Part shown: in pieces, positions 1 through 37,432 of the stretch
Position numbering within the stretch: position 1 is the stretch's first letter
How the letters are laid out: every line of letters begins with the position of its first letter
Virus record (IMG/VR): IMGVR_UViG_3300028914_000062
Location: 70,924 to 134,923 of that record
Source: a virus
Taxonomy: Duplodnaviria; Caudoviricetes
Direction: 5' to 3' (one strand)
DNA: 64,000 bases
Position numbers and translations under genes: made by a program
The notes under the pieces: generated by a model
Seen by the model: the letters and a program-made list of their open reading frames with translations, nothing else
What the model was told of the DNA's origin: nothing
Databases searched by the model: none

Positions 1-3000
1 AGAAATCGCCCTCTTTGCGCCAATATAAAGCACCCGCTTTATCTACTGCGCTTTCGGTCATGTTCAAAAATTGACCCAAAGTAGTTAAAATTCTTACTTT
101 GTCGGCATTGTCACCGTTGGCCAGGTCCATAATAATAGTACCTAATCTCCAAGCGGCCAGTGCGTCCGCATCGGCTGTGTGTGCAGTACCGGCGAATAGT
201 CCTAAACGATGACCTATTGTTTCCAACTTTAAGTTTTCAAAAACCTTGCCTCCGAAAACATTATTAGTAAATGACCGTAACAAAGTGGACAAATTACCGT
301 TTAAAGTGGTTCCATTACCTAATGTTACAGATAGCTGAACATTTTGCGCCCAAACGTAAGTATCCTATAATACAGATTTACTAATATCTTCAGCAGTATT
401 ATAATTATGAAGATAATATCCGCCTTTGCTATCCTTGCCAAAAATTTTAAGTTTAGCAAAACGGTCCATTAAGGAATCTACTTGCTACGCTGTCCATCCC
501 TAATCGGTAATGGTCCTCATACGCACCAATGTTTTAAGTAAAAACGGCGCGTCAAATCCTGTTGGGCCAGCATTATGTCCAATTAGCATGTCAGTATCTG
601 GATTAAATTTTGCCTTTTCAAGCGCAGAAACAAATTGATCCAACGCATTAAAAACGGTGGTCAAGTTTTTAACCGGCTTACCCTTATAAAATAACTCTCC
701 ATTTGATTTCCATTCAAAGCCTGTGGCCTAAGCAGCGCCAGCCTAATTAGCTCTTGCACGATTCAAATAATTAGGATCAACATTAATTTTAATACGTTTA
801 CCATCTGGAAGCACAATACCCATCTAAAATAAAGCCGGAATAGATTTACCTTTTTGTCCTAAAAGACCAGATGTCTCAAAGTCAAAAGCGAATAACCTAC
901 GTTTACCAGCAATAGTATTACCAATATTCTTTCCTTTAATAGCGTATACACTATTAATCATATTGTCTATTTGCTCGTCAGATGCTGTTGTAAAATGCCT
1001 CTTTAATATACGTCGCACCGATGAAGAAGACAATTCTCCCGTTTTAAAACTTGCAAGAAAGTCATCTAATGACATTACTTCTAATTCATCAATAACCTCT
1101 GTAATAGTGTCTGGAGGAGGAGCTAATGAATATTCATCAGCAATTTTCTAAATACTTTCTCTGCTTGTTAAATCAAAATCATCAGGATCTTCTCCCATAA
1201 CCTCTAAAGACATGCTTACATAGTTTGCAAGGTCAGATAAATCATAAGAAGGGTCTAGCCAACGATCTGAATCGTAATCATCTGGATTATAATTTGCATC
1301 ATCTCTATCGGGTTCAGAAGTTGGTTTTTTCCTAGCTATTCCATAAGCTGCCGCAGACACTCTGGCAGCGTGCTACTCATCCATAGCAACCTCTTTAAAC
1401 ACTGTAAATATGTCTATTAGCTTATTATGAAACTCTTGAGAAAATGCGGACTCGCGTAGCAATTCTTGGCGTAACATAGTTAAATTTATTCCAACGTTTG
1501 CAAATTTAGCTTTACGAGTGGTGAATAAATTTTCTAAGGTAAGCCCTTTAAACTTATTATTGGTTAATTTGATAACTCTATTCAGAACATCTACAAAAAT
1601 CTTTTTATCATTATTGGGAATATTAGTATCAGATAATTTTTCTGCTAACTATTCAGCATCAAACAATCTTTCTTCGTTATCCCATAATGCTTTTTCTGCC
1701 GCTTTGTGCATTGCCACTTCACGCTCAAGATCGGTTAACTCATCTTCATTAGCTAATGTTATATTAAATGATTTATCTTTTATCATTTGATTATAATACT
1801 CATTCAATGAATCGGACACATTTTGTTTCTTAAAATCTGTAACAGAAGACGTTTCAAACTCATTGACAACAGACAGCGTTAATTGAGCATCTACCAATGT
1901 GATAGGTATCTGATTTAATATTTGCTATGCCGCCTCCACATCAGCCAATTTCAAAGTCGATAATCCTAAAGCTGCAGAAATTAAATTTTCTACATTATAA
2001 TTAGAGTTAGATTTGGGTAAATTTCCTAAAATATTTTCGAATTTTTGTTTAACAACTGCAAAATTATTTACATTATTAATTTTCCACGCCAATACCTTAG
2101 TCAACGCAGGCTTTAAAAGTTCGGTATTAAAAACTTCTCCCCGCGCCAGTAACTAAACTCTTTTTAGTAAATCTTGTTCTGCGCCCATATAAGAATTACG
2201 ATTGGCCGATATTATAGCGGGATGCAATTGGGTTTCGGTCAGTGCTTCCCCAAGTCGAGATATTCTTGAGGCTGCCTATCCAGATCCGCTGTCAGATAAT
2301 AAACGCTTTGAAACGGTTTTTACTGCATCTTTTAATGCGGCAATTTCTGTTCCACTTAGTTTAGGTAACTGCATTGCCAAAATAGAGTCAACGTCTTTGA
2401 GTCCCTTTAGTATCTAGGGGAGAGCATCATTATATACCTTACTATATAACTAATAATTATTTGCAATATTTAATAATAATTCATACGCCGTATCAGATAT
2501 ATAATCCTTGGCTAATGAATCAAACCCGCGAAAACCCGGTCCTGACCATCCCATATCATCCATAAATTGATTAATGAGTGTGTTTCGTGCTTCAAAATCA
2601 CGCAAATTAATCTACGAATAACCAATAACAAAAGTTTTAATTTTTTTCATTATCTCTAAAGACTAATGTGCACTTATTTGATTTTTAGTTTCCGCTGGAC
2701 GTTGATGATATAAAGTTCTGTGCTAATCATAAATTATACTGGAAAACGCATTAGAAACGGGTTCGGTTAAGGGTTTTCCATCTACCGTGGTCGGTTTAAT
2801 ATTTTTTAAAGCTTCAGTATAACCACGAATTCTTTCAAAAAGATACTTTAAATCTGCTAAAACTTTAGAATTATGAACATAGTCGGGCGTTGTTGCCACG
2901 ATTTTCTTTAATTTTCGTAGAGCTTCGTCTCTTTTTTTTATTAATCGAATTTCCGCAGCTGTAAAAACCCTTTTCTGCTCTAATACTTCTTCTTCTACTT

Positions 3001-6000
3001 GTGATTTCCTTGGCTTTTCCCAATTCCTACGTTGGGCACTCTAACGATATTTTGGAGGCAAATGATTGCCATAGTAAGTTTCAAAAGCGGACTCCATTTC
3101 GGCCACAAATATTTTACCCATACCATTAATTTTTCCTTCAGGTAACAATTCATCTATATCTTTAGTAGCGGTTTTTAAAAGTTTATCTCCAGACTAATGT
3201 CTAGTAATAGCAAGACCTATCCAACCATCATCTGTTGTTTCTCTGCCATCGAAATTAGTAGTCGTAGAATATAATTTACTAAATCCGCGCTCAGTCAAAA
3301 CAGCCATAATCGCTGTATAAATACTAGGATAATCTTCACAAATTGCAAACAAACGTTCCATAGCAAATTCCTGATCTGCTGCACTAATATTTACAGTAGA
3401 TCCATTTTTTAAAGTTGTTTGTCCAGTTAATGCCTATTGTAACCAAGATGCAGTACTTACATATCCCCAAGGGTTAATCTTATAATCTACTCCTTGTTTT
3501 TTGCCAGCATCATATAACCATTGCGATTTAATTTTATCCGCATTAACGTTTTTTATATTAGAAATTTTAGTAAACACAATTTCATCAACGGCATCATGAA
3601 ATCGAGTACCTATAGAACCATAAGCGCCGCCAATCCTCAAAACCCTTTGAGCCCACCTGGTTATAGCGCCACTATTTCTTATATCAGATAAATCCATAGA
3701 ATTAAACAATGACTGTGCATACGCATCGGCTTTATCAGGCCCCTAAGTTTTATAAATAGATTTATAAACCGTAAAAATTTCATTAACTGAATTATTTCCG
3801 GTTAATAGTTCGGCCTAATCAACACGCATCCATTTGTCGCCCTATTTATAATAGGTCGCTGATCCATCTTCTGTATATCGATCTTCAGCTCTACCATAAA
3901 AAGTAAAATATTTTTGACCAGGATATTTCTTACGCATTAATTCCAATCTGGCTATTGTATAAAAAGTTTTACGATCTCCTGTTGGATCGAACCCCTAAGA
4001 TTTTACAACTTGTTCACGTTCGCCTCGAATTGATACTTCAGACCCAAACGGATTAATATCTGTCTGTTTATTTTCCGCAGCGTCTTTAATCAACTAAACG
4101 GCTTCGCGATCTGAAATATTTCGCACACTAATAGGGTGGAAAAAAGTGTCTTGTCGTCCAAATGGTACAACTTCTGCTCTAATATCGGCTCCACTAAAAT
4201 GAGGGTCGTGGCGTAATATCGCGGCCTGCATTGCGACCTCAAGACCACCATACAAACCACCATTTTTATATTCTTTACCAGATTTAAAATCTCGAATTTC
4301 ATAAAACACCTTACCGGTTTTTATATCTCTAATTTTATACAATCCATCAATCGTAGCAGATCCCCAAATTGGGTTTTTATGCGTACCAAAATTGGCATAA
4401 ATCTCTTTTTCACTAAAAATTTTTTCTACCTTAAATCTATTAGACGGATATTTGGCATTATAATATTGCTACGCATTTATAATTTTTTGAGTACCAACAA
4501 AATTGCCAAATTGATTAAAAAAATGAGTTCCATATTTCTACAATACTAAATTATTAGAAGTATATAATCCCATTTCAGACAGTTCTTCATCAGTAATTTT
4601 ATGTGCCTTCCAAGCGGTCTCAATATCTTTTATAGATAAATTAGAGATTTTATTGGCTTCATAAAGTTCCAAAAGTTTATGGAAGGCCGTACCATATGCG
4701 ACAGCTCCATTATTGCCCGTTCCAGAATAAGTAGAACCAGATGTAATTTTACCAACATAAGAAGCCGATATCACATGCGATTTGGGACTTAAATCAACCT
4801 TCCACTACTAAGTTTTGTTATCAAAAACTGCAGTAAAAGATTCGTGCTATGTTTTTAAAAATTTTACCATAGCGATCTTTTGCTATGCTTTATTTTTAAT
4901 GGATAAAATATCTTCGGGAATATAGCCTTTAGCATTAACAAAAGTAATGTTTCCTGCCTAATAATTGTTTAAAAAATCAGAACCATTTAAACGAAAAACT
5001 CGTTCTTTGTTTCTATGCGCCAACTCTTGTCTACGGCGATTTTTTACTTCATTGGGGTTCCATTTCTCCCATTGTAAAAAACCGCGATTTGATTTAGAGC
5101 GCCAATTTGGGTTATTTTTATTATCAGAAGTCCACTAGAAAAATTCGCTAACTGGTCTACCAGGAAATTTCTTTATCCACGCAAGCAATAATTTACCCTC
5201 TGGTCTATTTAAATATCCTGACTCTTTTAGTTTATGATAATCAGTATCATTTAACCAATCATTAAAACCGCGTTTTGTTTGGTTTTTCCAATATGACTCT
5301 GTGGTAATATCTCTTCTCCATGCAATAAACTCACTCACAGGATGGCCGGGAAATTTTTTCATCCACGCCTTAAGAAGTTGACCCTTTGGGCCACCCAACT
5401 TACGACTTTCTGGAGAAGGCTTATATTGAATATTACCAATCGAAGTCTCTCCAGCAACATAAGGCTTAGACGGAGAAGGAACACCGCGAGCGCCAAACTG
5501 AGAGGCTTGTGCCTGGCGACGATTTTCTTGTGTACGTTTAATATTCGCCAATATTGGTCTTCCCTCTTCGTATTCTATGTCCATTAATCTGAAATTAGCG
5601 TCTTCCTCGTCAAACTTGCCGTCAATAATAGAACGTGTAAAATAATTAATTACCTATTCTTTCGTAAAATGACATGTTTTAAATAAATAATCTGAGTCCT
5701 AAGAGGGTATTTTTTTAATATATTTTTCAATATCTCCTCGTCTAGCTTGGATATCTTCACATGCCATACGAGCCGACTTATTGAAATCTTTTAACCATAT
5801 TTCATAATTTTTAAGCGTCAAAGCTCCACTATGCCAATTTTTAGCCCATGTAGGCTAAGGTGCGCCCAACTATGGGGTAGTTGCACTATAAGTCGAATAA
5901 ACAGGAGAATCTATATTAGTCCATTCATGCTCGGTCCAAACTCCCCATTGAGAAATAGAATTAAATACCTCCACCCACTACTTTAATTCTTGAATATTCT

Positions 6001-6385
6001 TTGTACAAAACTTATTAATTTCGTTAATATCTATAGAGCCATAAGATAATATAGCAGATTGATATTGATCAATAGTCTAATTTAACTTAGGAATAATAGA
6101 GCTAATAATGCCCGGTCCTTCTTCTAATAGTATTTTTGCCTTATAACGCCCCGCAGCATTCCATTTCGTCATAGCTAAATCAACACGTTCTTCATATTTG
6201 GCGATTAAAGCATCTTTTTGTTCTTTGGTTAATTTAGAATATGCGCGAGTCTACTGATTTAACTACTGAGCCTCATCCTCCAAATCAAACGGTACAGATG
6301 AATCGATTTTTTGTGCAAGTTGAGCCTACATTTGCACGCGTTCTCGACGACGTTTTCTTGCCCATCTACTTGACGATTTGCTCAT
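1..6385 (-). CDS. Giant (>2100 aa, 3'-truncated) protein at the tape-measure position, with PD-(D/E)XK nuclease and DEDDh exonuclease domains (code 15)
   Basis: ATG at 6385 with a GAGGAG RBS. Track fragments 5135-5584, 4538-4774, 4094-4342, 3434-3709, 1649-1897, 1148-1360 and 824-1075 share one frame and each ends at TAG. Motifs: GTAFHKLLE..E..GSATIDG..IRDFKSGK..Q (~4100-4780) and AFDFETSG..GHN...FD..HTADAD (~130-900). Frame was spot-checked, not checked codon by codon throughout. Confidence 0.8.
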
Positions 6386-7054: not shown

Positions 7055-8038
7055 TTAAAAATCAAACTTATCTTTTTGCTACTGAAGCATCTTCGGATCA
7101 ACCTTAATATAATGCTTCTGCGTAACATCCAAACCTTTGTGATTCAAAAGTTTAGATATATCTTCCAATTCCATACCCAAATTCTTAAGCAGTGTAGCAC
7201 CACTATGTCTAAAATCATGCGGGTGGAGTGTGGACACACCAATCAAATTGCCAATAATACGCGCCCACAGGAACATAACGGAGGCGTCAGTAATGCCGCC
7301 GCTTTTTGTTACAAATAATAGTCCATTGTCCTCAATCTGCATTTCGGATCGAAACGCCTTGAGTTTTTCTAGAAGCTCTTTAACCTCGTTGGAAAAATAC
7401 AATGAAACAATATATCCTTCTTTCTCAACAACGTCATTAATAACGCGCCCCTCCAAATCGATCTGGTCCCATTTAATAGAACTAACTGCACTGGCGCGGG
7501 CCATCGTTGATAAAGATAACATACCATAAACCCAGACTTCAAGAGCCAAATGTCTTGCAGTCACACCAACAGCCGTCTCAAAATTCTCTGCAAGCTTCTC
7601 TCTCATCAAAGTCACTTGTTCCGGCGTCAGGTAGGTCTGCACTACAATATCGGTATCCTTCTGCGGACGACTCACATCCTCCATCGGATTTACAGTAATA
7701 ATTTTCTTCTTTCGTAAAAACTTATAGAAAGCTGCGAGAGAGCTAATGCGTCTCTTAAGGCGACGGGAATTATTCCCTTGCTCTTTACAGAAATAAAGAA
7801 AATCAGTAATGTCGTCCTCATCCAGGTCCGTAACACAGCGATTCTACTGCTCGTCCAAAATATAAATCCACCACTACCGTAGATCGCTATAATACTGGTA
7901 GATCGTATCTTCTGACAGTTCACGTAGCTTCATATCTTTTTCATATTTCTTCCATAGCTACAAAGTTTCTGCGTTTACTTTTGCGAGCTTTTCTGCATCA
8001 AACAGTTCAATCCGCTCGCTTCGAGTTCCGATCGGCAT
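7055..8038 (-). CDS. Tyrosine recombinase, XerC/D-like (327 aa, code 15)
   Basis: Catalytic R (MARAS), HxxR (HPHDFRHS), H and Y (LLNHKGLDVTQKHY). N-terminal domain restored across 3 TAGs; C-terminus reads through TAG 7079 to TAA 7055. Confidence 0.9.
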
Positions 8039-8729: not shown

Positions 8730-8772
8730 CTAAAAGCACACTCCTTTCTTCCATTTTAACCTTTAATAAAAC

Positions 8773-8801
8773 AATTGGGAGAGACTTTCGTCTCTCCCAA
8801 T
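8773..8801 (-). terminator. Intrinsic terminator
   Basis: ATTGGGAGAGAC/GTCTCTCCCAAT stem followed by a T-rich tail on the minus strand. Confidence 0.7.
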
Positions 8802-8804
8802 CCG

Positions 8805-9456: not shown

Positions 9457-9486
9457 ATTATTGGCCCCTTTCTTATATTAAGATAT

Positions 9487-9518
9487 AATCAGGAGAGAAA
9501 ACAATTCTCTCCTGAATA
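9487..9518 (-). terminator. Intrinsic terminator-like hairpin
   Basis: TCAGGAGAGAA/TTCTCTCCTGA inverted repeat after tail gene. Confidence 0.55.
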
Positions 9519-9522
9519 TAAA

Positions 9523-10905
9523 TTATGCCAATACCAAAGTGGTTATACCACAATGTTCTACTTTATTATTCTCGTCAAGTGTTACAACTACACAAGCATA
9601 TCCCGGAGCTCCACCTGTAGCCGGCAGTAAAAAGCCACCCCCAGCAAGTGTTGCGCTATTCCAATTACCAGAAAGAGTGTCTCCTATAGCGGGAATTGCA
9701 ACACTGACTCCTGTTTTATAATAAACAGTACCTTGAAGAACGGGCGAAATTGTAACTATCCAATCTTGTCCGTTTTTCCGATTAGTTACGGCTAAGTCAC
9801 CTATAGACTCTCCAAATGTAGTTGTTAAATTACTATATCCGGTACTATAAGTTAAAGTATAAGCGGCAGCATTGCCAAAATGCACTATACCATTTATGCA
9901 ATAAGTGGTAGTATAACCATATGGAGAATCCGAGGTAATTTGTGTATTAATTGCTGTCATTCCAGGCGGAGTGGGGTCTCCTCCGTTAGCATGAACTAAT
10001 ACTGCTACGGTTCCATTATCATAAATACCATATAAAGGAGCATTCGTGCCCTTCACATATCCTGTAGCAGCATCTACGATAATTCCCACAAGCCCTTCAT
10101 TAAGAGTTCGTCCCTTAACAGTTTCAATAACGCGGACTAATTGTCCATTAATCATATCGCATCCACTGAAGTCTGCAAGAGCAGTGCCCGACAATTCCAT
10201 TGTTGTATTGGAACTCATATTAAACGTAAAATTTTGCGCTCCATTAAGCTTAAACCTAGGAATTTCAAACGTCAACGTACCGGCAAATTTCCCATTTGCA
10301 GTAGCACAAGCGTCCCCAGAAAAAATAGGAGCGGTAATAATCAAATACAACTCTTCTGGAATAATATTAGAAGTAATAATAGCATCCCTAGCTTGCTCAT
10401 CGGTAGCAAGATAACGAATGCAATATTCGTCATCATTGGTAGAACCAGGAATCGTTACTTCGGCCGATTCAACTACCAAGGTGTTCCACACCTCGGAACC
10501 GGATCTGGAATACCAAATGATCTTATCATTATCAGTATCGCAAGCAACTTGCAAAGCAAGGGGATTTTTACTCAGAACAATTTTCCCAGTGATTTTATCG
10601 CCCACTTTAAGAGTTTCGCTCTGATATGCTGTTATATCCGCACCTGTCTAAAACATAGCCCCAAGTTGCGCCTCCAGATAAGACTCTTTCCAGAAGATAT
10701 CTGTTAATGTAATTTCTACATTAGGATCATGATAAAAATTCGTAACAATGGGAGCACCTGTGCCTCCACGAAGATCGTCTTTAGTTGTAGAAATATTAAT
10801 AGAAGAATCTGTTAATGTTTTACACACAAAAGCAAGTTGACGACCAACGGCCGTATTACGAAAAGCTTCTGCGCTACCTACTGATCCAAGAAAATATTTG
10901 GACAT
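9523..10905 (-). CDS. Major tail (tube)-like protein, paralog 2 (460 aa, code 15)
   Basis: 10648-10905 and 9523-10605 are in frame and joined at TAG 10648; strongly similar to 11092-12219. Confidence 0.75.
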
Positions 10906-10920
10906 ATGTTACCCCCTCCT

Positions 10921-11088
10921 TTACTTGTTATTATTTTGATACTGCGGGCATTTCTGCCCGCAGTTATGTTCTTTGAAACACCGATCTTTAAAGCAGTATT
11001 TTTGACAAATACACACTTCTTGAGATAATGTGCATGTATAGCCTTGGCCTGGAATATAATGGCTATATACACAATTGTGATTACTCAT
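10921..11088 (-). CDS. Small Cys-rich protein (55 aa, 8 Cys)
   Basis: MSNHNCVYSHYIPGQGYTCTLSQEVCICQKYCFKDRCFKEHNCGQKCPQYQNNNK; fills the gap between the tail paralogs; below the track length cutoff. Confidence 0.6.
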   Translation of the reverse strand: MSNHNCVYSHYIPGQGYTCTLSQEVCICQKYCFKDRCFKEHNCGQKCPQYQNNNK

Positions 11089-11091
11089 AAA

Positions 11092-12219
11092 TTATGATGC
11101 GCTAACAGTTGTTACAGAGCAGGCGAAAGAGGGCGAGCCCTGATCGCCGTTCGGATAAAAAGTAAAGGCCTGAGCGCCCGCGGTGGAGCTAAAGGTAACG
11201 GTACCATTAGATTTATCATAACTTGCTCCAGAGGGAATACTTATGTAATTTGGATTGGCGTTAGCACTAGCTGTGCTATTTGCCCACTTTAAGAGAGCTC
11301 TTTCACCATTTTCATATATGGTATAAATGTTTGCCGTAGCAGCAGGTGCATAACCATTACCCTTATCGATCATAATTTTCAAAATACCGACGTTTGGAGT
11401 TCTACCATCAATACTTTCGATAATACGAACAAGCTGACCATTAATCATATCACAGCCACTAAAGTCGGCAAGAGCAGTACCAGAAAGTTCCATAGTAGTA
11501 TTAGAACTCATGTTAAACGAGAAGTTCTGGGCACCATTGAGCTTAAATCTCGGGATCTCAAAAGTAAGAGAGCCGGCGAGTTTACCATTAGAGGTAGAAC
11601 AAGAATCGCCAAAGAATATAGGAGTTGTGATAATCAGGAAAAGTTCAGCAGGAATTATATTAGAAGTAATAGTTGCCTCTCTCGCTTGCTCATCGGTAGC
11701 AAGATAACGAACGCAATAGGTACCAGATTCGGGAACTGTTACGGTTTGCGACAATTCGGTAACCTAAGCAGTATGCCATGCGTCGGAACCCTCTTTTGAA
11801 AACCAAACCGTGGCTTTTTCTTCTGTATCACAAGCAACAGGCAATACAAGGGGCTGTTTAGTTAAGGTAATCTGATAATGACTGTCAACCTGCGAAGCCG
11901 TTAAAGCATGAGGCTCGGTAAAATAATTCGCAATTTCAGCACCGGCCTGGAACATAGCACCAAGCTGAGATTCAAGATAAGACTCTTTCCAGAATATATC
12001 GGTAAGAGTTATTTCAACGTTAGGATCGTGATAGAAATTGGTTACTATAGGAGCACCAGTGCCGCCACGAAGATCGTCTTTGGTCGTCGAGATGTTAATC
12101 GAAGAGTCGGTCAGGGTTTTGCAAACAAAAGCTAACTCCTTACGAGTTGTGCCATCGCCATTGTCTATGGTTCTGAAAGCTTCGGCACTACCGACCGAAC
12201 CAAGAAAATATTTGGACAT
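11092..12219 (-). CDS. Major tail (tube)-like protein, paralog 1 (375 aa, code 15)
   Basis: Fragments joined at TAG 11764; position in tail module; beta-rich. Confidence 0.75.
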
Positions 12220-13845: not shown

Positions 13846-13846
13846 A

Positions 13847-23916: not shown

Positions 23917-25791
23917 TCACTTTCTTGAAAACGGATTTGTTCTATCTGCAAAAGGATTAACAATCTGCTTATGTTTGGGAGTTATGTTAAAAATATAATC
24001 ATAATCTGTATCGACAGTTGTGTCGCCATAGATTTCCTCATTACGAAGAGTCATAATGTGCCACGCAAACAGTGCTAAACAATAAGCGCGGTCATCGTGC
24101 ATTTTACGAATCACTGTATTAGGCAAGTGATACAATACCTAACCGGTATTCGCACTCTTTTCCTTTACGAAGTTAACAACCTCTTCTTTCATAAGGTCCA
24201 TTTCGACATAGGCAAATATTTCTTCTTGAGTTAATGTCGTAAGTTTTTCCTCAAGCTATAACTCGTGATTCTTTGGTAGGCAACAGGGGAAAATAATTAA
24301 ATCCTATTGCACCAATTCACATAACCAAGCAAACATTTGTTGACGCCACTTTTTCGGCTCAACCATATGGCAACAGTCCACAGCGTGAGGATATTTTTCC
24401 AATTGCCTCCCCGCATCCGGATCGGTTGAATCAATAACTCCTCTATGCAACTATCCATTATGATCAACCCAGTCTTCCCAGAGACGTTCACAATATGTGC
24501 GTCCACCTCCACCAGCACCAATATCAACCATAAGCTAACAATTCTAATATTCGGGATTATTACCATTATAGTTAACAATCATATCTCGAATGATCTATAA
24601 TTGCTCATTGGTCCTCAAGGGCTTTTTGGTCCCATCTGGTAAACGATCAATTAAGTTTTGGCCATTTACTATGCGGCCCATCCATCCCTTTTGTGGATCT
24701 CTATATACCTCTCCTACCAGTGCAAACGAATTATCCATCTGCGCCGCAGGGTCGAAACAAATAGCATAGTGTCTGGGAATAGAACGATCGGCGATCGGTC
24801 GATATTCAAATTCTGGCAGATAATCACGCTCATTACGAGTAATCTCATAACGCTTGATCATGGCATCAGTTCCGCCAGTTTTGTCGAAAATGTTGTAATA
24901 CTCCCTCATCGCTTTTGCCTCATTTTCTCTCATCGCCTGATCAATTTTATCCTACGTAAGCAACGGAGGATAAGCCTAACCATTAAGTGTCGGATGAAGA
25001 GGAATTTCACAGTTTATGTCTACACAGAAATAACCAGGAATTCCTTGTATCATCTTAATAGCACACTCTTTATAGCGCTAAAACAAAACAGTATTAACAT
25101 CTTCAGCAGAGGAAGAATATATCAACTGATTGGGGATATCTTTGGGTAAAATATCTGCGTTTAATCCGCTACCAGTTTTAAAATCTTTACTTTGAGTAGC
25201 AAAAGGTTCTGTTCTTGTAAAGAATTCGGGACCGATCGACCCCGCCTCATCATAAAAGTTTAAGTTAGAGCGTTCGCCCAATACAGTTTTTTCAGTACCC
25301 ACGATTGTTTTAATTACAGAGCCGTTAAATAACTAACATTCGTGTCCCTTCTAACCGTGAGTAAATCCATCGGAATTTGCGTTGCTTCTTATTAGCTCAT
25401 TGGCAAATACTTCAGTTGATCCGATAATTGAACTGATGTTTCGTTTCGCAATGTCTTCAAGCTTTTTAAAAGTCTCATTTGCCTGTTTCGCAGAAACAGA
25501 CAAAATACAAATCTTCATTTTGGGAAATAATAAAGCACGAGTCATCAGATACAATGCACCGTCAAAAGTTTTACCGGCGTTTCGGGACCAGAGCCAAACT
25601 GCATACTATGCAGTCCAACTGCCTTCAATTGTATATTTCTGATAATCCAGTAGCTAAATCTTGAATATTTTCTCAATAAACGCTACTGGATGCTTTCTGC
25701 CCCATAGAATTAGTTTATTATATCGATCCATCGCCTCGAGGCGTCGTAAGGAGATATTGTTATCGGTTAGATTACTATAAACAGAAATCAT
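23917..25791 (-). CDS. terL: Terminase large subunit (624 aa, code 15)
   Basis: Walker A SRNAGKT, Walker B NFYDEAG, nuclease CFDPA, VDIGAGGGG and HDDRAY; 11 in-frame TAGs counted. Confidence 0.92.
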
Positions 25792-27206: not shown

Positions 27207-27208
27207 CA

Positions 27209-28465
27209 TTAATCAAGATTTATTCTAAAGTCAAGATCGTTTTTGCCATCAAAAACTATCAGCGTCTGCGACGGTCTCGAATACAGACTCTTCTGCATTG
27301 CATAAGTATCGACACCCTTAAGAGATCCGTTTACATAAACTTTCGCAGAGTTAAACTCTTTCGTCTTCGCACTGTGGAAATGTCCCAGGCAAATGTAATC
27401 AATATACGACTGCAAAGCACCGGTAAAATTCTGATAAGCTGTATCAGTCGCAAAAGTATGACCGTGAGCATATCCAACTTTTCTGCCATCCCAGAGTTTA
27501 AATACTCCCATAGTATCGCTCATATTTTCAAACTCGAATATAACATTCTCAACATTACTGAGCTGAAGCCTCATCTGAAGCGCCCAGTTAATGAGATAAA
27601 TCAGATTATCATCATCAGTGGATTCTTTCCAGTTCTGAATAACTCGATCATGGTTACCAACGCAACTCCTATATTCAATGCAATCAACATGTTCTGCAAC
27701 AGTTGTAAGGAAGTGAGCGAGAAGCTCGGTTGCCTGAATAACCTGATCGCAAGTATTAAGTTCGTTTGTTACTCGAACAGTTACGTGTATTTCTCCTTCG
27801 ATAAGATCACCAAGATCGAGCACGTGAAGCGTGGTAATATGAAACATTTCGCAATATTTAATAACTTCCTGCGCGAGTTTTTCCACTCTCTTAACCGCAA
27901 TCTCATAATCAAACTTGTTATAAAAATTATTCACATAGCTGCCTATGTGCCAGTCAGAAAGAAGGAATATACCTTCGCGGGCATCGTTAGGATCAAGATG
28001 ACCGCCTTGTCTCTAGAACTTAAGAGGAGGCATGGTCTTAATCGCTTCAACAAGTCTATCTTCAAGAACACCAAGTCGGGCGTCTTTTCTTAACTCGCTA
28101 CGATACTCTCTTACTGCATCTCTGGCAGTGGTCATTGTCTTATAAAGCTCAGCCGCCTTCTGTTCCTCTTCTGTCTTCTCTGGGTTGAGAGGAGAAACCG
28201 GCTCATCTGGGACCGCAATATAATCAGGGTTCTTGGGAAGGGTTCCATCTTTTTCCTGGCGATGCTTTACCCAAGCTCTGAGCTGTTCGCCGCTATCTTT
28301 TGGTGTGTGGAGTGCTTCATTCAATGCCGCCCAATTCTTTTCAGTATGCGGGAGAAGTTTATACTTTAAACCAATCGCATAAATATCGTCAAGGGTCAGC
28401 GTGCCATTGTCAATCTTGTCGGTGTATTCTGTTAAAAATTCCTAGAACTGTTCCTTAGTAATCAT
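27209..28465 (-). CDS. Calcineurin-like metallophosphoesterase (418 aa, code 15)
   Basis: SDWH, GDLIE, GNHD, HGH and GHFH motifs; joined at TAG 28013 and 28442. Confidence 0.85.
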
Positions 28466-28588
28466 AGAATCTTTCCTTTCGCGTCTTATATTTTCAGTGA
28501 ATTTTTCTCGTTATTTTGCACTTTGCAGTGCTTTTCTTCCCTTTCTCAATACCAATGTTTTAGGTCATGGTCTAATTTATCTATGGTA

Positions 28589-29641
28589 TTATTGCACATT
28601 CTAGACTGTATTTTGTTTATGAGTGGCCTTTTTAGGGATATTTTTAATATCGGCCGCAAAATAATACTTGCTTCCAGAGAGAGATCGTCGAGCGCAAAAC
28701 TCTCCTGTACGGTCCCATCTGGTTAGCGTATGAGGATTAACTCCACATAATTGAGCAAATTGTTTCATATTCAGCATGGTGCAGTTCTCGCAGTATTTTT
28801 GAGGGCGGCGATCATGAGCATATGTGTAAAACTCCTAACCACAATGAGCACACTTTACTAAACGATTAAACTTCGATTTACACTCGTCACATAAATCTGT
28901 TTGTTTCTGATAGTGCTCTCCAACGATTATCTTCTACCCACACTTACTGCAGTTTACAGATCCTTTGTCACAAAGAGATAGAATATCCTCAATACCGGTT
29001 AAATCGTTATCCGTGATCACAAGGGGTATCCCATTGTAATCAATAGTCTTCCCAGAGTCTTTGATGTTATAATCAATCAGAACCTTCATCTGGACTTGTG
29101 CCCTTAAAGGGTTCAACTCAGTCTCATACAAATGCAGCTGTTGGTTCCATGTCGCCATCTTCTATCTCTTTGAAGGTTTCATATCGTGCTCCATACCGAT
29201 TTTCTTAAGAATAACACTTTCAACGGTCAATGAAGAATACGGGAATGGCTAAGAGGGGAATACCTTGGACATTGCCAATAGGCACACCAAATATTTTCTA
29301 AACCATTGCGCCACAGGTAGAGAATTGATATAATCCAATTCCTCCTACCAAATCTTCGCTGGCCGATAATGCGTCGAGTACAACAAGTTCTTTTGCATCG
29401 ATATTGACCAGATTAGATTAAACCCTGCTCTGAGATCGTCAATATCGTGATAGAGATTATAAGACTCTGTCATCGGGTTCTCTGTCTTCTTCCAGATTTC
29501 AAAGATTTCTTCCTTGGTCTTCTTCTCCTCTGTGTATAAATACTAACAGAGCGCTACCTCTTCAGAAAAGATCTTGTACTTGGTTAAGTACTTACCCGTC
29601 TATAAAACTTGCTATATACTCTTGTTATAATCTAAAAGCAT
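28589..29641 (-). CDS. Putative transcription regulator with zinc ribbons and a C-terminal MerR-like HTH (350 aa, code 15)
   Basis: ATG 29641 with AAGGAG RBS; CSKC/CDEC/CAHC/CENC; LNMKQFAQLCGVNPHTLTRWDRTG; about 9 TAGs. Confidence 0.65.
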
Positions 29642-29670
29642 AGGGGTCTCCTTTCTAATATGCTGTCCAT

Positions 29671-29711
29671 AGTATACCACACTTTTTCTTATTTGTCAAG
29701 TGATATATCAC
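29671..29711 (-). promoter_or_regulatory. sigmaA promoter with palindromic operator GTGATATATCAC
   Basis: TTGACA-17-TGnTATACT; perfect 12-bp palindrome abutting the -35. Confidence 0.8.
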
Positions 29712-30188: not shown

Positions 30189-30229
30189 GTGAAATATCAC
30201 TTGACAAATAGAAAGGGATATGGTATAAT
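30189..30229 (+). promoter_or_regulatory. sigmaA promoter with operator GTGAAATATCAC
   Basis: TTGACA(30201)-17-TGnTATAAT(30224). Confidence 0.85.
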
Positions 30230-30271
30230 AAAGGGGATAAAGAGAGTTTTCAAAAAAATTTTTTCAAAATA

Positions 30272-30312
30272 GTGATATAGTACTTGACAAATAGGGTACT
30301 ATGTGCTATAAT
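30272..30312 (+). promoter_or_regulatory. Second tandem sigmaA promoter with degenerate operator GTGATATAGTAC
   Basis: TTGACA(30284)-17-TGnTATAAT(30307). Confidence 0.8.
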
Positions 30313-30371
30313 ATTAATAACTTAAGGGGGATCATCCCCAAGACAACACCCAGGAAGGATGAGCAACAAAA

Positions 30372-30980
30372 GTGAGCCTTATATCAAAAACAAATCTCTT
30401 TATCGACTTTGATGATACAATCGTCAATTCTGCAGAGACTATAATCAAAATACTAAACGAACGCAATTGTACCAGAAAAACAATTGTCGATCTGAAAGGC
30501 TGGAATTTTGAAGGAATAGCCTAGTGCTCCAGAGAAGACGTTATAGCGCTCTTTGAGAGTTAGAGCTTTTTCGATCGTTTAACCTTTCAGCCCGGCTTTT
30601 AGGAATTCTTAAACAATTATGCGAACAAGTTTAACTTAAATGTCGTATCCATTGGAACCGAAGAAAATCTGGCCAAGAAAAAGCAATGGCTGGATAAGAA
30701 CCTTCCCAAAGGAACGAAGTATCATCTAATCTCTTCTAACGTGGAAGGAAAGTTTGATAAGTCCTCCATCGATATGTCTAAGGGCATATAGATCGACGAT
30801 CGTACTGATTGCCTGCAAACCAATGCCGGTATCAAAATATTACTAAAAGACTATGAGTTTCCGTGGAATAAGACTACGGGCACAGAAGACAACCTCTACA
30901 TAGCCTCCTCTTGGAAGGAAATTGTAGAAATAATTTTATTCTTCGATAAAAACAAGAAAATGATTTGCCCCTGCTACTAA
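30372..30980 (+). CDS. HAD-family 5'(3')-deoxyribonucleotidase-like protein (202 aa, code 15)
   Basis: LFIDFDDTIVNS (motif I), K..WL, GI(TAG)IDD (motif IV), PWN; 4 TAGs; absent from the ORF track. Confidence 0.85.
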
Positions 30981-31001: not shown

Positions 31002-33800
31002 TTGCCCGTTAGACAAAACCTGTATTAGATCTATAAGCTGCCTTCCTCGCTTATAGTGAAAAATAATTGCAACATCCCCTCATACACAATCAAACAGGCC
31101 AGAGCCGAAAATACGCTTATTTCCATCAGTGATAACTTGGTCTTCCATCAGATTAGAAAGTACTACAACGATTTACGGACGCCCGATTAGATTTACGACT
31201 ATGTTTAGTCCTTGCGCTCCAGTTTAAGATATTATCGTCGTGAAGGCTTAACCAAAGAAGCCAATAACATTAACAACCAGATCACTTCTGTTCTCTTTGT
31301 GAAAGATATCATCAACATCGAGGTTATTAAAAAATCCGATTACAAACAATTTGGTGTGAAAGGTTTTGACGTCAATGGCATTCACTATAGACGGTTCTGC
31401 TGCGGATCTGGTCAAATGCGAAGAAACACAATCACCTTTATCAACGAGGAACTTTACGACACAATCTTTACCAATCTAATGTGTGACTTGGGTCACCGAA
31501 TTAGTGAATTTAATCTGGCAAAGTATCATGCATATTTTGCGTTGGCATTTTCCTCAGTGCTTTGGGTCAGAACCCCAAGGGTTTGTGTTATCAAAGATTA
31601 TTATCGCACCCTTAAAGAGGAACCGGTCGATTTTATTACTAAAAAGAACGGCAAGTCAATAGTGGAACCTCGCCACATGGATATCGAACTTAACTGCGCA
31701 GATGGTCAAGGGCTTATTGATCCATCATTCGCTGCACAATGGGCAGAAGACATGGCACAAGATTATGTTCCTTCGTCTTTTGTGGTACGAAGCGTATTTA
31801 TCAAAGGCAATTTGGTCCCATTTGATTTTAGAGCATACGCCAAATCGTAGGGAATTGACAAAATATATGACAAGTGGGGTAGGTCTTATCCCATAGACGA
31901 AATCGATGTCATCTTAAGCGAATCGCAGTTCAAGATGCACAAGTATTACAGCTCTTGGCAAGAATACAAAAAATATGCCGACGCTGCTGATATTAAATGG
32001 GGCGTTGCGAGATATAATAGAAAACGCGATGACGAGTTCGTACAAGCGAATTATCAATATATTTAGACCCTGGGTATTAACAAAGAAGATACCATCAAAA
32101 TGATCTAGCCGACGATCGATTGGATCCATAAGATTTGCTCCGGTGATGAACTATTTGGTTTATTGTTTGCAATAGGCGGAGGGTGCGGAGATTTAAGCTA
32201 CGACTCTTTATTACGAGCGACCGAATCCACTGCCATAAAGGCCGTCGTTAAGAATCACGAAATGATTCACGATGGATATATTCAGGCCAAAATGTATAAA
32301 ACCATTGCGCGTCTTATTGAGAAAGCAAAGATTGGTAAAATCTGGGTCCACGGCAATTATCAATTTATGATTTCTGATCCTCTTGCGCAATGTCAAAGTG
32401 CTCTTGGCTTGGAACCGAAAGGTTGCTTGGGCAAAGATGAAATCTGGTCCAAATTCTGGACAGAGAGATATCCCGAAGGCCGCACCATTGACCTTTGCCG
32501 CAGCCCGATGATCGATGAACATGAACACAATCCCATGCTTTCAATTGCATAGAATGAGACCGTTGATGAATGGTTTAAATATATCAAGAGTGGCATAGTG
32601 TTTAATACTTACGATACCAGTACCTTGAGAGCAGAAGATGCCGACTTTGATGGCGACATTGTGTTTTCTACTGACAACGATTACTTTATCAATGGCGCTC
32701 ATAAAGACCACAATATCATTACTTACGAAAAGGGCTCCGCTCCACTGCAAAAGGTTACTCTGGAGAACCAGGTTAAAACCGATATACGGGGACTTGGGAC
32801 TGGTGTTGGTGGATTCAGCAATTGTGCCACAATTATTGAGACCATGAAAGCACAGTTTTTACAAGATAATCAAAAGTCTCAATATGATGAATTGTGCCTC
32901 AGAAAGAAGCTTCTTCGAGAGATTGTGGGACAAGAGATCGATCGCATCAAAGGTTCTGCTGCTCCCGTCCTTCCCTCTGAATGGAAGCATTTTGAAACCA
33001 TTAACGAAGACGACGATGATGCCACCAAGGCAGAGAAATACCGTCACAATTCAATGGTTCTTTCCAAGAAGCCTTACTTCTTCAGATATCTTTATCCAGA
33101 GTTAAATCAGAAATATAAGCGCTATGAGAATGCTTATAATACGATTGCTCAAGCTCAGTTCGGTGCGAAGTTTAAGAAAGTCCTTGGCAAATAGAATAAA
33201 ACTCCTACTGAACTTCAACTTGTAAAAAGATTTTACAAGTTCAGTCCTCTACTTGATTCTCCCTGTACGATGAACAACATCTGTCACCTTTTCGAACACG
33301 AAGACTTTAGAATCAAGTACGATAGAGAAAACATTTCTCTTCTCCCCACTTTCGACGATGAGTTCGAATTTGATCCGGAGAAGTTAACATAGATCAAAAA
33401 AGCATACAACATATTCTCTTCGAGGATGCAGCTCCATGCCTTGGAAAGAGCCTGGGATATCTACAATACCACAGACTCCACAGCGTCGCTTCCTTACTCA
33501 ATTGAAGAAGAAGATTACGTCAGAATGAGAAAAACTCTTCTTGATCTCCTTCGCACCAATTGTTGGGATATCATGCGCGGCATCTCCTCAAAAGAGTTTC
33601 TGTATTACTGCGGACAACTATCCAAAATTTACAGACAGTTCAACTGGGGCTTTGCCTGGGATATGCTTGGAGAAAACATTATTGATTTAATCCCAGAAGG
33701 AGAAACAGTGGTTCCCGTAGAAGATCCAAATGGACAAGAATACTTGGGCAAAACTTATATTCTTAAGTCTGTCCCTCATGAAAAGGAGGAAACGCCGTGA
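31002..33800 (+). CDS. YonO-like single-subunit two-barrel RNA polymerase (932 aa, code 15)
   Basis: Catalytic DADFDGD, ADGQGLI, IKG, SQFK, NYQYI(TAG)TL, RSP and EID; four track fragments in one frame; 9 TAGs. Confidence 0.9.
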
Positions 33801-34381: not shown

Positions 34382-34701
34382 AATTAAGAAAGCCTCCTTT
34401 CCCCACCTGGGAAGAAATATGTCCTCCTCATAAGAGATACACAAGCACCAAAAACAAATTAATAATCGACTGGCACAATGTGGTTGGTCCCAACTGGGGA
34501 TTTCCCTTCGATATTTACGTCACGTGCAAGGACGGCTGGTTGGAAGTCGGACTGCAGTACAGCAAGGATCAAAAAATTGTCGCAGGACATAAGACCAATG
34601 GCTGGGTTAAGACACAACCGATTTATGAAGCGATGGTTAAGTGGGTTATAAAGGATTATCGAAAGCTCTTTAAAACCCGAATATGCGAACATTTTCCGTA
34701 A
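34378..34701 (+). CDS. Hypothetical protein (107 aa)
   Basis: ATGA overlap. Confidence 0.6.
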   Translation: MKLRKPPFPTWEEICPPHKRYTSTKNKLIIDWHNVVGPNWGFPFDIYVTCKDGWLEVGLQYSKDQKIVAGHKTNGWVKTQPIYEAMVKWVIKDYRKLFKTRICEHFP

Positions 34702-34712
34702 GGAGTGATTAT

Positions 34713-36944
34713 ATGAAAGCAGAAGAACTTAAATTAAAATATAATATAGCGCCCGATACCGGCGAGGATATGACTCCTCGCTTTCAGGCGTTTATTGATG
34801 AAGAGAAAGAGCCTTATATGCAGCTCAAGGCTGGAGAGTATATCTTCAAAGGTACCTTGCATATAAGAGCTGACGCGGATCCGGATTCGACTTACGGCAT
34901 GTTATCAATCGAAGGTGAAGGCGCCAAGATCAAGATCGAGTCCAATTTATGGATTAACTGCCAATGCAGAAAAGGAATAAATGAGAGGGATATATCAACC
35001 GTTCATTTAAGAGATCTTGAAGTGACCGGACCAGGAGCAACTGTTGTTGAGTCCCAGAGCATTGTATCTATAAAATATTGCAACTTCCATGATTTAAAGA
35101 CCATTGCAAGGGTTTCAAAGGAAGGGTTTCATACCTTTAAGCATCTTAAAATTAATAATGTCGAAACCGCCTTTGAACTTTCTCATATGGCACAGTTCGC
35201 AACGTTTGATAGCATAACCGCAGAAGATATCGGCACATTTTTATTCTTAAGAGCAAGAACACCTGTAAGCACAGGCATTGTCGTTGTCAGATGTCATATC
35301 AAAAGATCTTCCAAATGGGCCATTGATATTGATCAAGGCGGAGGAGATACTACATATATTTATGATTCCAACTTCGAGGAATGCAAAGGAGGAGTCAAAT
35401 TAAGAGCCAGCTTATTCGATAAGTTATGGTCTTGCTCCTTTGAAAAGTGCGAAACCGGAATTGAATGGATGGGCTGTGTCAATGGGGGACATATTTCTTA
35501 CTCCTTCTTTGACGAGTGTGACAAGGGTGTTCATATGATCGGAACTGGAGAATGTTCCATCGGAGACTGCATATTTCAAAATAATAAACTGGATGTTGAA
35601 GTCACTTCATGCAGATGGCTTGGTTTCAATAACAACATCTTTGGAGAGCATTCTTTCGAATGGAACGGCTCAAACGGAAGGTGCAAGGTCTGGGACTGCT
35701 CGTTCAAAGGAAAGGAACCTGCATGGCCGGTATTATGTGAACACTGGAATAACTTTGAAGATGTCGATTACTTAATGAGACAGACGACATTTACTGAAAT
35801 TGATGTTCCTCCTGTTCCGATTAAGAGACTTGGAGCGGGAAGGTTTTATAAAGCAGAAGGCAACGAGTTCGACGGCTGCGGAAGAGGCTTGACCGTTATC
35901 AAGGGAGTCAAGTTCGAAGGAGAAAGTCTCAGATTAAGAAATCTGACCTTGCTTGATTGTGAGATCGATGTCAAGGATTTGGAAATCAAGGATTGTGTCA
36001 TAAGAGGCAAAGAGGTCGGATTCAAAGCCTCCGGAGAAGTCGATATTGATGGGTTGTATATGGTACAAGTTTAGAAGGGGTGTCAATTGAAGGGGTGCAC
36101 AGGGGTTATTAAAAACTTCCTTTGTGTTGGCAATCCGGATTACTTCATCGAGGCTGAGAATTGTCATGATATGGATTTTGAGAATGTTATTGCAGCGACG
36201 GAGACGAAAGATGTTAAACTGACCAGATGCAAGAATATGAGATTTAACTTTGGAGGACTTGACGGTTTCACAGAGCATAAGTGGGAGATCACCGAATGCG
36301 ACGGGATCGATATCAGAAACATGTTTATGAGTTCTGCGAGGAGCGCTTGTCTGATTGAGAAGAAGTCAATGAATCTGACGATGAGTGATTGCACTCTTAA
36401 CTGGAGCAATGATGTTGTTGACGGTCTTGCAAGGATTGAAAGGATTGCAATAAATCAATGCAAGCGTGTTAAAAATATGATTGGCGGTTTCGTTTACGAC
36501 AGAGGCGAACTCATCGAATGCAAGGGAGCATTCAGACCGGAGGATAATATTGAAGAATGGTGCGGAGAAGAAGAGGACTGGAAATATTATCATTTTAAAA
36601 ATCAAGATGGTCCTTGTACTCTTAAGTATAATAGTGGTTGGAGAGAAGGCAATAAGATTATTGTCTGCGACTGCAACTGGTTCGCCAGTCTGATTATGGT
36701 TAGCAAGAGACGGATTAAGGGAAAGGTTAAGATTAAGGTTACGAGACCGAGGACCAGGTACGGCTGGGACGAGAGCAAGTTGCACGGAGCCGTTGTTGGC
36801 TGGAGCGATAAAATGGCACCAAAAGTAATGAAGAGGATCGAGGACGAGTGGGAAGGAGAAGTCGACGGTTACTTGACAATTGGGGGAGTCGCTTACGGAG
36901 CTGCTGGTGTCGAGGTTGAGTACTGGATTGATGAGATAAAATGA
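34713..36944 (+). CDS. Right-handed beta-helix (pectin lyase-like) protein (743 aa, code 15)
   Basis: D.T..FQAFID....L.AGEY N-terminal cap; repeated CxF/GI beta-helix rungs; single TAG at 36072 joins two track ORFs. Confidence 0.7.
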
Positions 36945-37432
36945 AAGGAAGAAAGAACATGGAAAAGACAATGAGCGAAAACGAATTTATTAAGAAAGCA
37001 GAGGCTTATATTGAAAAATTTTATCCCGGCAAACAAATTTTAAAGCATGCTGAGTGCGTATACGTCGATGAAGACATGGCAATTATACGCGACAGAACCT
37101 ATGGAGAAAAGGATGAAGTTTTTTATTGTCCGGTTTATAAGAAAGGCAAGACGGTTACGGGCAAGCCTGATGAGAGATTGGTATAGGAGATTTATCCTTT
37201 GGAGAGATGGTTTAATGAGGCCGATATGATTGAAGCGGTTAAGATTGCTGAACAGGCAAGGAAGGATCTGCTGCCAATTCCTACGATTATTAAAAGTATT
37301 GGCAAAGAGGACAATAATATTGTGGTTTGTCCGGAGTTTAGTTATAGTTGGAGCGCGGATAAGAATGGTATTTGGAAAAAAGATGGCAAAATAAAAATCG
37401 AAGTTAAGGACGATGAAAATGGAAAGATTTGA
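36941..37432 (+). CDS. Hypothetical protein (code 15)
   Basis: 36941-37186 ends TAG and is in frame with 37199-37432. Confidence 0.6.

What the first reader, a model, noticed from the sequence alone, without database searches (positions are those of the whole stretch)
1..37432. TAG reassigned to Gln, with a sharp genomic partition of code usage
Seen: most genes in 1-37.4 kb contain in-frame TAG (terL 11, RNAP 9). The standard-length genes from 38-64 kb, including >3000 codons of PcfJ genes, have none, and those whose stops I checked end TAA/TGA. Internal evidence for identity: tail paralog 1 reads GAMFQAGA where paralog 2 reads GAMF(TAG)TGA. Established: code-15 gut phages with recoding enriched in late genes have been described. 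Inference: early genes are readable in the host code, and late genes need a suppressor tRNA or RF1 change, which is not in this window.
Basis: partly seen in the sequence, partly recalled or inferred. Interest (0 to 1): 0.72.

Follow-up and report, generated by a model that had tools for sequence, protein, structure and literature searches.

The report
Phage reads TAG as glutamine
This cattle-gut phage writes its particle, lysis and RNA-polymerase genes with the stop codon TAG read as glutamine while its replication and accessory genes avoid TAG, a real but already described way for phages to hold back late proteins.

Summary
Reading TAG as sense raises coding density from 0.72 to 0.89. It fuses fragments into terL (14 TAG, not 11), portal, a YonO-like RNA polymerase (9 TAG) and a 4245-aa tail protein (84 TAG). 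No in-frame TAA or TGA appears. A Codetta-style test against mostly standard-code relatives picks Gln in 1987 of 2000 bootstraps.

The window is the right half of a 134,923-bp phage contig that is 81% complete. The recoded block is 65 kb (genome 43.6-108.4 kb). Its right edge at window 37432 is sharp. Its left side is graded: PhoH, an exonuclease and a DnaB-like helicase carry two TAG each. The major capsid protein inside the block has none.

The suppressor is indeed outside the window. I partly confirmed it, 49 kb upstream, downstream of an early promoter.

About 22 near-identical host-type promoters drive the early units. They also drive the TAG-laden polymerase operon and the head of the late operon. 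The code switch therefore probably sits upstream of late transcription.

This is a new member of a known kind (Ivanova 2014, Yutin 2021, Borges 2022). The scan has noted the same recoding in overlapping windows of this genome.

The parts
2..6385 (-). N-terminal 2128 codons of a 4245-aa tape-measure-position protein (genome 64571-77308). 42 in-frame TAG lie in the window part and 84 in the whole protein.
7055..8038 (-). Tyrosine recombinase (Phage_integrase family) inside the structural block, with 4 TAG.
9523..12219 (-). Two paralogous virion structural genes (9523-10905 and 11092-12219). A TAG in one aligns with CAA/CAG Gln in the other.
16838..17935 (-). HK97-fold major capsid protein. It has 0 TAG, and all 7 Gln codons are CAG. 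The neighbouring 184-aa gene (17961-18515) also has 0 TAG.
21735..23513 (-). Portal protein, 4 TAG.
23917..25791 (-). Large terminase, 14 TAG (47% of its Gln codons).
27209..28465 (-). SbcD-type exonuclease, 2 TAG.
28589..29680 (-). First gene of the minus-strand late operon. It has a C-terminal MerR-type HTH and 9 TAG in 363 codons, the joint-highest TAG density among genes in the window (only a 155-aa ORF outside it is slightly higher).
29671..29711 (-). Promoter of the phage's conserved family (GTGATATATCAC + TTGACA, 17-nt spacer, TG, TATACT) at the head of the late operon.
30189..30312 (+). Two tandem perfect promoters of the same family (TTGACA, 17-nt spacer, TG, TATAAT) in front of the nucleotidase and RNA polymerase operon.
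30372..30980 (+). NT5C-type 5' nucleotidase, 4 TAG (57% of its Gln codons).
31002..33800 (+). YonO-like single-subunit RNA polymerase (Pfam RdRP PF05183, DFDGD at residue 548). It has 9 TAG, the first at codon 9.
34683..37432 (+). Beta-helix protein (1 TAG) and a 163-aa ORF (1 TAG). These are the last TAG-containing genes, and the boundary lies at 37432/37445.
37445..64000 (.). TAG-free flank: small genes, DUF932, four PcfJ paralogs (49562-51724, 51798-54401, 55114-57393, 57502-59658) and GP88. Stops are almost all TAA.
59710..59750 (+). Family promoter in front of the GP88-like gene.
62217..63148 (-). Three family promoters on the minus strand near the right end of the contig. Their upstream boxes start at 62257, 62646 and 63148.

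Best explanation
What it is. The window is the right half of a roughly 135-kb tailed phage genome from a bovine gut metagenome. In this phage TAG is decoded as glutamine.

Where TAG is used. TAG makes up 28% of Gln codons in a 65-kb block (genome 43.6-108.4 kb; window up to 37432). The block encodes packaging, head, tail, lysis and NrdD genes, a recombinase, a regulator, a nucleotidase and a YonO-like RNA polymerase. TAG is almost absent, both as sense codon and as terminator, from the replication module on the left and the PcfJ-rich module on the right.

Shown: the reassignment, its identity as Gln, the distribution of TAG, and a family of about 22 near-identical sigma-70/sigma-A-type promoters.

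Inferred mechanism.
1. Host RNA polymerase starts at these promoters.
2. TAG-free genes are translated at once.
3. One early unit also produces a precursor tRNA. Removal of its group I intron creates a CUA anticodon on a Gln-like acceptor.
4. Only once this suppressor accumulates can ribosomes read through the TAG-laden polymerase, the regulator and the structural and lysis genes.
5. The code switch therefore acts upstream of the phage's own late transcription.
6. The most abundant virion proteins (capsid and its neighbour) avoid TAG, probably because suppression is less efficient than normal decoding.
For: ORF restoration and coding density. The recoded ORFs are real genes, because Pfam and PHROG matches run across the TAG codons (terL, portal, exonuclease, RdRP-type polymerase, NrdD, endolysin, PhoH).

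Gln identity: and the internal paralog pair. CAG falls from about 17 to 10.6 per 1000 codons where TAG rises to 11.7.

Selection rather than composition: out-of-frame TAG is equal in all parts of the genome. TAG terminates at most 2 of about 66 flank genes, against 7% of genes in standard-code relatives.

Relatives: three TAG-recoded relatives each encode a tRNA-CUA with a UGGGG...CCGCCA Gln-like acceptor. Two standard-code relatives have none.

Candidate suppressor in this genome: Rfam group I intron match, E 3.8e-4. The exons join into GUUGG-CUCUAAC-CCAAC with a 3' end of CCCCCGCCA. The gene lies about 680 nt downstream of a family promoter.

Promoter family: 19 exact TTGACA-N17-TATAAT sites against about 0.05 in shuffles, with a shared upstream box. 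None lies inside genome 47.4-100.6 kb.

Capsid protein without TAG.
Against: There is no direct evidence of translation, splicing or timing, and no RNA run holds this DNA.

The intron match is below Rfam's gathering score. The spliced tRNA has an 8-nt T loop without the usual GTTC, and ARAGORN rejects it. The P1 pairing for the proposed splice site is weak by eye.

Many TAG sites fall in variable columns where Glu or Lys is commonest. A few sit in columns that are conserved for a residue other than Gln, such as portal 256 (Asp) and terL 272 (Lys).

Polymerase recoding is not conserved. There are 9 TAG here, 2 and 1 in two other recoded lineages, and 0 in a lightly recoded one.

The right flank lacks family promoters over 22 kb, so its early status is assumed.

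The contig is only 81% complete.
Confidence: 0.8

Rival explanations
1. The recoding is real but has no timing role. CAG-to-TAG transitions drift in wherever a suppressor is already present when the gene is translated, and purifying selection keeps TAG out of genes needed before that or needed in large amounts.
For: TAG sites lie mostly in variable columns. Recoding load differs widely between related lineages, and the polymerase is TAG-free in one of them. The capsid gene avoids TAG, which suggests a cost rather than a benefit. Replication genes carry a few TAG.
Against: The first genes of both divergent operons are the most TAG-dense (9 TAG in 363 codons; 4 in 202). The polymerase has a TAG at codon 9 in a column that is Gln in 31 of 35 relatives. 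The right boundary is abrupt. The two views are not exclusive.
Confidence: 0.3
2. Suppression comes from the host, or from a canonical tRNA-CUA in the unassembled 19% of the genome, and the intron-split gene is a relic.
For: The contig is 81% complete and linear. Recoded relatives carry ordinary intron-less tRNA-CUA genes. The candidate has an abnormal T loop.
Against: The candidate keeps a perfect anticodon stem, the same CUCUAAC loop as relative G003, the Gln-like acceptor end and an encoded CCA. It also lies in an early transcription unit.
Confidence: 0.2
3. TAG encodes another residue (Glu, Lys or pyrrolysine) rather than Gln.
For: Glu and Lys are the commonest residues at many TAG columns. 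ARAGORN labels CUA tRNAs 'Pyl' by default.
Against: In the per-site likelihood, Glu is 12.4 and Lys 14.7 log units worse than Gln, and they win only 11 and 2 of 2000 bootstraps. Controls with true Glu and Lys sites are called correctly. The relatives' CUA tRNAs have tRNA-Gln-like acceptor ends. CAG is depleted where TAG rises.
Confidence: 0.04
4. The contig is a chimera of a recoded phage and a standard-code phage or plasmid.
For: The TAG-free right flank carries plasmid-like genes (PcfJ, DUF932) and has a higher G+C content in places.
Against: The same 40-nt promoter family occurs in the left flank, at the centre of the recoded block and in the right flank. TAG is avoided as a terminator in all parts.
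Confidence: 0.03

Closest known systems
Stop-codon-recoded gut phages using TAG as Gln (code 15): Ivanova et al. 2014; Yutin et al. 2021 (PMC7886860); Borges et al. 2021/2022 (10.1101/2021.08.26.457843); proteomic proof in Peters et al. 2022 (PMC9523058)
   Same: In-frame TAG is concentrated in structural and lysis genes. Replication genes are largely compatible with the standard code. TAG is depleted as a terminator. Relatives carry a tRNA-CUA. Standard, TAG-recoded and TGA-recoded members sit close together in one terL family. The timing model is the one in Borges Fig. 6.
   Different: This is not a crAss-like or Lak phage. Here the phage RNA polymerase and the first gene of the late operon are among the most recoded genes, and both sit behind consensus host promoters. 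The suppressor candidate is split by an intron.
Agate clade of Borges et al. (large Firmicutes-infecting phages from animal guts, with mixed codes)
   Same: Genome size near 130-150 kb, bovine source, mixed genetic codes among close relatives, and a Gram-positive style of promoter and ribosome-binding site.
   Different: Membership could not be tested because no Agate sequence was available to compare.
phAss-1 / Phassvirus group (Babkin et al. 2023, PMC10607447)
   Same: A roughly 136-kb gut siphovirus-like genome with TAG in about 40 ORFs, including terL, portal and a very long tape measure. Some members of that group lack a detectable tRNA-CUA.
   Different: phAss-1 carries 36 tRNAs and three ordinary tRNA-CUA genes. 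The terL search of the phage collection found only distant Bacillus and Microcystis phages, so this is a different lineage.
YonO of Bacillus prophage SPbeta and the crAss-like virion RNA polymerases (two-barrel, RdRP-related)
   Same: Pfam RdRP match and a DFDGD catalytic motif in a single polypeptide.
   Different: Its role in late transcription is inferred from YonO, not shown. There was no sequence match to any solved structure.

Membership tests
TAG-to-Gln recoded phage (code 15 type) | Conserved phage genes are interrupted by in-frame TAG only and restored when TAG is read as sense. | tested here: met
   Domain matches run across the TAG codons.
TAG-to-Gln recoded phage (code 15 type) | TAG positions correspond to Gln in homologs that use the standard code. 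| tested here: met
   Gln gives the best likelihood and wins 1987 of 2000 bootstraps. Controls are called correctly.
TAG-to-Gln recoded phage (code 15 type) | The phage encodes a tRNA with a CUA anticodon. | tested here: inconclusive
   ARAGORN and Rfam find none in the window or the contig. A candidate split by an intron lies at genome 21564-21850. Three recoded relatives have canonical tRNA-CUA genes.
TAG-to-Gln recoded phage (code 15 type) | Recoding is enriched in structural and lysis genes, and the replication core is standard-compatible. | tested here: met
   11.7 TAG per 1000 codons in the block, against 1.6 in the left flank and 0.4 in the right flank. DnaE, RecD2 and ligase have 0 TAG.
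TAG-to-Gln recoded phage (code 15 type) | Gln is found at TAG positions in the protein. | not testable with these tools
   This needs proteomics of the source sample.
Agate clade (Borges et al.) | Placement inside the clade on a terminase tree. | not tested
   No clade sequences were available. Only size, habitat and mixed codes agree.
YonO-like two-barrel RNA polymerase | DxDGD metal-binding motif and a match to the RdRP (PF05183) profile. | tested here: met
   DFDGD at residue 548. PF05183 scores 40 bits against a cut-off of 23.8.
YonO-like two-barrel RNA polymerase | Two double-psi beta-barrel fold. | not tested
   No structure was predicted. The sequence search of the PDB found nothing.
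Group I intron in a tRNA anticodon loop | Match to the group I catalytic core. | tested here: inconclusive
   RF00028 scores 26.7 bits, E 3.8e-4, below the gathering score of 50. The core is 83% identical to a stretch in recoded relatives G003 and G034.
Group I intron in a tRNA anticodon loop | The 5' exon ends in U, the intron ends in G, and the joined exons restore a 7-nt anticodon loop. | tested here: met
   The junction is ...GGCUCU / intron ...UAGG / AACCCAAC, which gives the loop CUCUAAC.

The most novel reading that the evidence does not exclude
The genetic-code switch is the master timer of this phage. Host RNA polymerase fires identical consensus promoters everywhere, including at the phage's own polymerase operon and the head of the 53-kb late operon. 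Dense TAG codons in the first genes block translation there, and may also block downstream transcription through polarity. The block lasts until a self-splicing intron has matured the only amber suppressor. Late transcription would then be gated by translation, not the reverse.
Probability: 0.3. Interest if true: 0.65.

Novelty: new member of a known kind. Interest (0 to 1): 0.35.

Why it matters
Practical consequence. This genome and its recoded relatives are mis-annotated under table 11, where a third of the coding capacity is lost, so they should be called with table 15.

Biological value. The case adds a non-crAss lineage, probably infecting Gram-positive hosts, in which a polymerase and a regulator sit behind amber codons and host promoters. 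The order of events (code switch first, late transcription after) could therefore be tested.

Suppressor detection. Published surveys found a TAG suppressor in only about 40% of TAG-recoded genomes. This case suggests one reason: the suppressor here, if real, is invisible to standard tRNA finders.

Tried and rejected
- A single-protein scan of viral contigs found nothing. The alignment-based scan worked.
- A terL search of the annotated phage collection gave only distant Bacillus and Microcystis phages.
- ARAGORN at relaxed thresholds produced hundreds of false calls and no credible CUA.
- A 91-nt tRNA-like gene (genome 18292-18382) was considered as the suppressor and rejected. It has no CUA and no readable anticodon arm.
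- No release factor or GlnRS gene was found in the contig.
- No RNA holder was listed among public runs, so splicing and expression could not be checked.
- A search for a shared late-promoter motif in the intergenic gaps of the structural block found only hairpins and ribosome-binding sites.
- A sequence search of solved structures with the polymerase found nothing.
- Chimeric assembly and gene decay were considered and rejected. The promoter family spans all parts of the contig, and only TAG interrupts frames.
Full report
**Setting.** The window is bases 70924-134923 of a single 134,923-bp contig. The contig is an IMG/VR virus record, linear, with CheckV completeness of 81%. The only runs that hold its DNA in full are from one bovine gut metagenome sample of 2019, which may be its source. 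Genome coordinate = window coordinate + 70923.

- Under table 11 the first 37 kb of the window hold only short ORFs. With TAG as sense they merge into long ones.
- Over the contig, a greedy ORF cover rises from 0.72 to 0.89 when TAG is sense. The control readings TGA-sense and TAA-sense give 0.77 and 0.82. The gain is concentrated in genome 50-110 kb.
- The merged ORFs carry in-frame TAG but no TAA or TGA. They include a 4245-aa ORF with 84 TAG, of which the window holds 2128 codons and 42 TAG.
- The merged ORFs are real genes. Profile matches run across the TAG codons for large terminase, portal, SbcD-type exonuclease, a virion structural protein, an RdRP-type polymerase, a tyrosine recombinase, a nucleotidase, NrdD, an endolysin and a tail protein.
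The polymerase has 9.
- The four PcfJ genes are confirmed and have no TAG in 3064 codons.
- Out-of-frame TAG is equally common in all parts (10-15 per 1000 codons). In-frame TAG is 11.7 per 1000 in the block, 1.6 in the left flank and 0.4 in the right flank.

**Which amino acid?**
- An alignment-based scan fetched 80 loci around terL homologs from viral contigs. Most use the standard code there. A few are TAG-recoded and one is TGA-recoded.
- I aligned all proteins of this genome, with X at each TAG, to these loci. I then built an empirical table of which residues the relatives show for each residue of this phage.
- Gln is the commonest partner of TAG and gives the best likelihood.
- With one vote per site (50 sites with at least 8 homologs), Gln beats Glu by 12.4 and Lys by 14.7 log units. 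It wins 1987 of 2000 bootstraps. The same test names true Gln, Glu, Lys, Asp, Asn, Arg, Ser and Thr sites correctly.
- Single sites are telling. RNAP codon 355 is Gln in 48 of 51 relatives, codon 9 in 31 of 35, a 377-aa protein's codon 19 in 20 of 20, and the nucleotidase's codon 140 in 15 of 15. A few sites sit in columns conserved for Asp, Glu or Lys.
- Where TAG rises, CAG falls from about 17 to 10.6 per 1000 codons, as expected from C-to-T changes in Gln codons.
- The tRNA-CUA genes of three recoded relatives have acceptor ends of the tRNA-Gln type: UGGGG at the 5' end, G73 and an encoded CCA. The comparison with E. coli tRNA-Gln is from my own knowledge.

**How sharp is the partition?**
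- The recoded block is genome 43.6-108.4 kb, so the window holds only its right 37 kb.
- The right edge is abrupt. The last TAG-bearing ORF ends at window 37432 and the next ORF starts at 37445. After that no certain in-frame TAG occurs.
- The left side is graded. DnaE (1318 aa), RecD2 (773 aa) and the NAD ligase (662 aa) have none. PhoH, an exonuclease and a DnaB-like helicase each carry two TAG inside their matched domains.
- Inside the block some genes have none. One is a 365-aa protein that I show to be the HK97-fold major capsid protein: a model with pLDDT 73 whose top Foldseek hits are all capsid or encapsulin folds at probability 1.0. It uses CAG for all seven Gln, and the 184-aa gene next to it does the same for its five.
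- TAG is almost never a terminator anywhere in the genome. At most 2 of about 66 flank genes end in TAG, against 7% in standard-code relatives.

**Where is the suppressor?**
- It is not in the window. ARAGORN and Rfam find no ordinary tRNA-CUA in the contig either, only Pro, Met, Asn and Thr tRNAs and an odd 91-nt tRNA-like gene.
- No release factor or GlnRS gene is present.
- Three TAG-recoded relatives each carry a tRNA-CUA, and two standard-code relatives do not.
I checked it.
- Rfam's group I model matches genome 21646-21825 (minus strand) at 26.7 bits, E 3.8e-4, below the gathering score.
- The flanking exons (37 and 41 nt) end in U and follow a G. Joined, they give a 78-nt RNA with a six-pair acceptor stem, a D arm with GG, a perfect anticodon arm GUUGG-CUCUAAC-CCAAC and the end CCCCCGCCA.
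- The loop is identical to that of relative G003's tRNA-CUA, and the 3' end is identical to those of G001 and G002.
- Its T loop is abnormal, and ARAGORN rejects even the joined sequence.
- I rate it the probable suppressor, at about 0.65. The 19% of the genome that is missing leaves room for another.

**Promoters.**
- The divergent gap at window 29.7-30.4 kb holds two perfect TTGACA-17-TATAAT sites with TG, and a third with TATACT on the other strand.
- Genome-wide there are 19 exact sites, against about 0.05 expected. All share an A/T-rich stretch and a GTGATATATCRC box upstream, and most are followed within about 20-45 nt by a ribosome-binding site and a start codon. Three more members differ at one or two positions or are cut by the contig end.
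- They lie in the left flank (genome 0-47.3 kb), at the polymerase operon, at the head of the late operon, and in the last 5 kb. None lies inside genome 47.4-100.6 kb.
- One sits about 680 nt upstream of the split tRNA, after a 175-aa ORF.
- Host polymerase therefore probably reads the polymerase operon and the start of the late operon early. Their first genes carry 4 TAG in 202 codons and 9 in 363, and the polymerase has TAG at codon 9.
- The polymerase has the DFDGD motif and matches Pfam RdRP, the family of YonO-like enzymes.
- That it transcribes the promoter-poor structural block is an inference from SPbeta YonO (my knowledge), not shown here.
- In other recoded lineages of the family the polymerase has 2, 1 or 0 TAG, so this gate is not universal.

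**Comparison with what is known.**
- TAG-to-Gln recoding confined largely to late genes, with suppressor tRNAs, TAG depletion as a terminator and frequent code changes between close relatives, is described for crAss-like, Lak and six other clades. It has proteomic support in crAss-like phages (abstract of PMC9523058).
- A 136-kb non-crAss group with the same trait is also described.
- The present case is thus a new member of a known kind. Size, bovine source and mixed codes among relatives fit the Agate clade, but I could not test that.

**Verdict.** Interest is modest for the recoding itself. The more interesting reading is that translation gates late transcription through a polymerase locked behind amber codons and an intron-matured suppressor. 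That reading is plausible but untested.

Noticed in passing
L081:17198-17276 (-) = genome 17.2 kb, outside the window: A c-di-GMP-I riboswitch aptamer (Rfam RF01051, 50.3 bits, above the gathering score) lies just upstream of a 267-aa gene next to the phage tRNA cluster.
   Followed up: no
L081:18292-18382 (-) and L089:3706-3796 (-): A 91-nt tRNA-like gene with normal acceptor, D and T arms, but a 39-nt region with no readable anticodon arm in place of the anticodon stem-loop. A look-alike of the same length occurs in the TAG-recoded relative G003. A second weak tRNA-like hit with a 6-nt loop is at L082:2186-2257 (-).
   Followed up: partly
L089:3552-3632 (-), relative G003: Rfam tmRNA match (58.4 bits, above the gathering score) inside the tRNA cluster of a TAG-recoded relative. 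A weak group I intron match (L089:2356-2613) lies directly upstream of that phage's intact tRNA-CUA.
   Followed up: no
window 30321-30342: A G+C-rich hairpin (CTTAAGGGGGATCATCCCCAAG) sits between the second perfect promoter and the start of the nucleotidase/polymerase operon. It could be an attenuator or an RNA-processing site.
   Followed up: no
window 7055-8038 (-): A tyrosine recombinase with 4 TAG lies in the middle of the tail genes, right after the tape-measure-position gene. Because it needs suppression, it is unlikely to serve early integration.
   Followed up: no
window 8742-28588, intergenic gaps of the late operon: Most gaps between late genes hold a perfect G+C-rich hairpin without a clear T tract directly after the stop codon, followed by a ribosome-binding site.
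   Followed up: partly
window 36001-38000: GC skew jumps to +0.40 at the boundary between recoded and TAG-free genes, and a GAAGAGGAA x3.6 repeat lies at 37770-37800.
   Followed up: no
L041 (relative, IMG/VR 3300001598_000001): One member of the same terL family appears TGA-recoded (coding density 0.68 under table 11 and 0.87 with TGA as sense). The family therefore holds standard, TAG-recoded and TGA-recoded members.
   Followed up: partly
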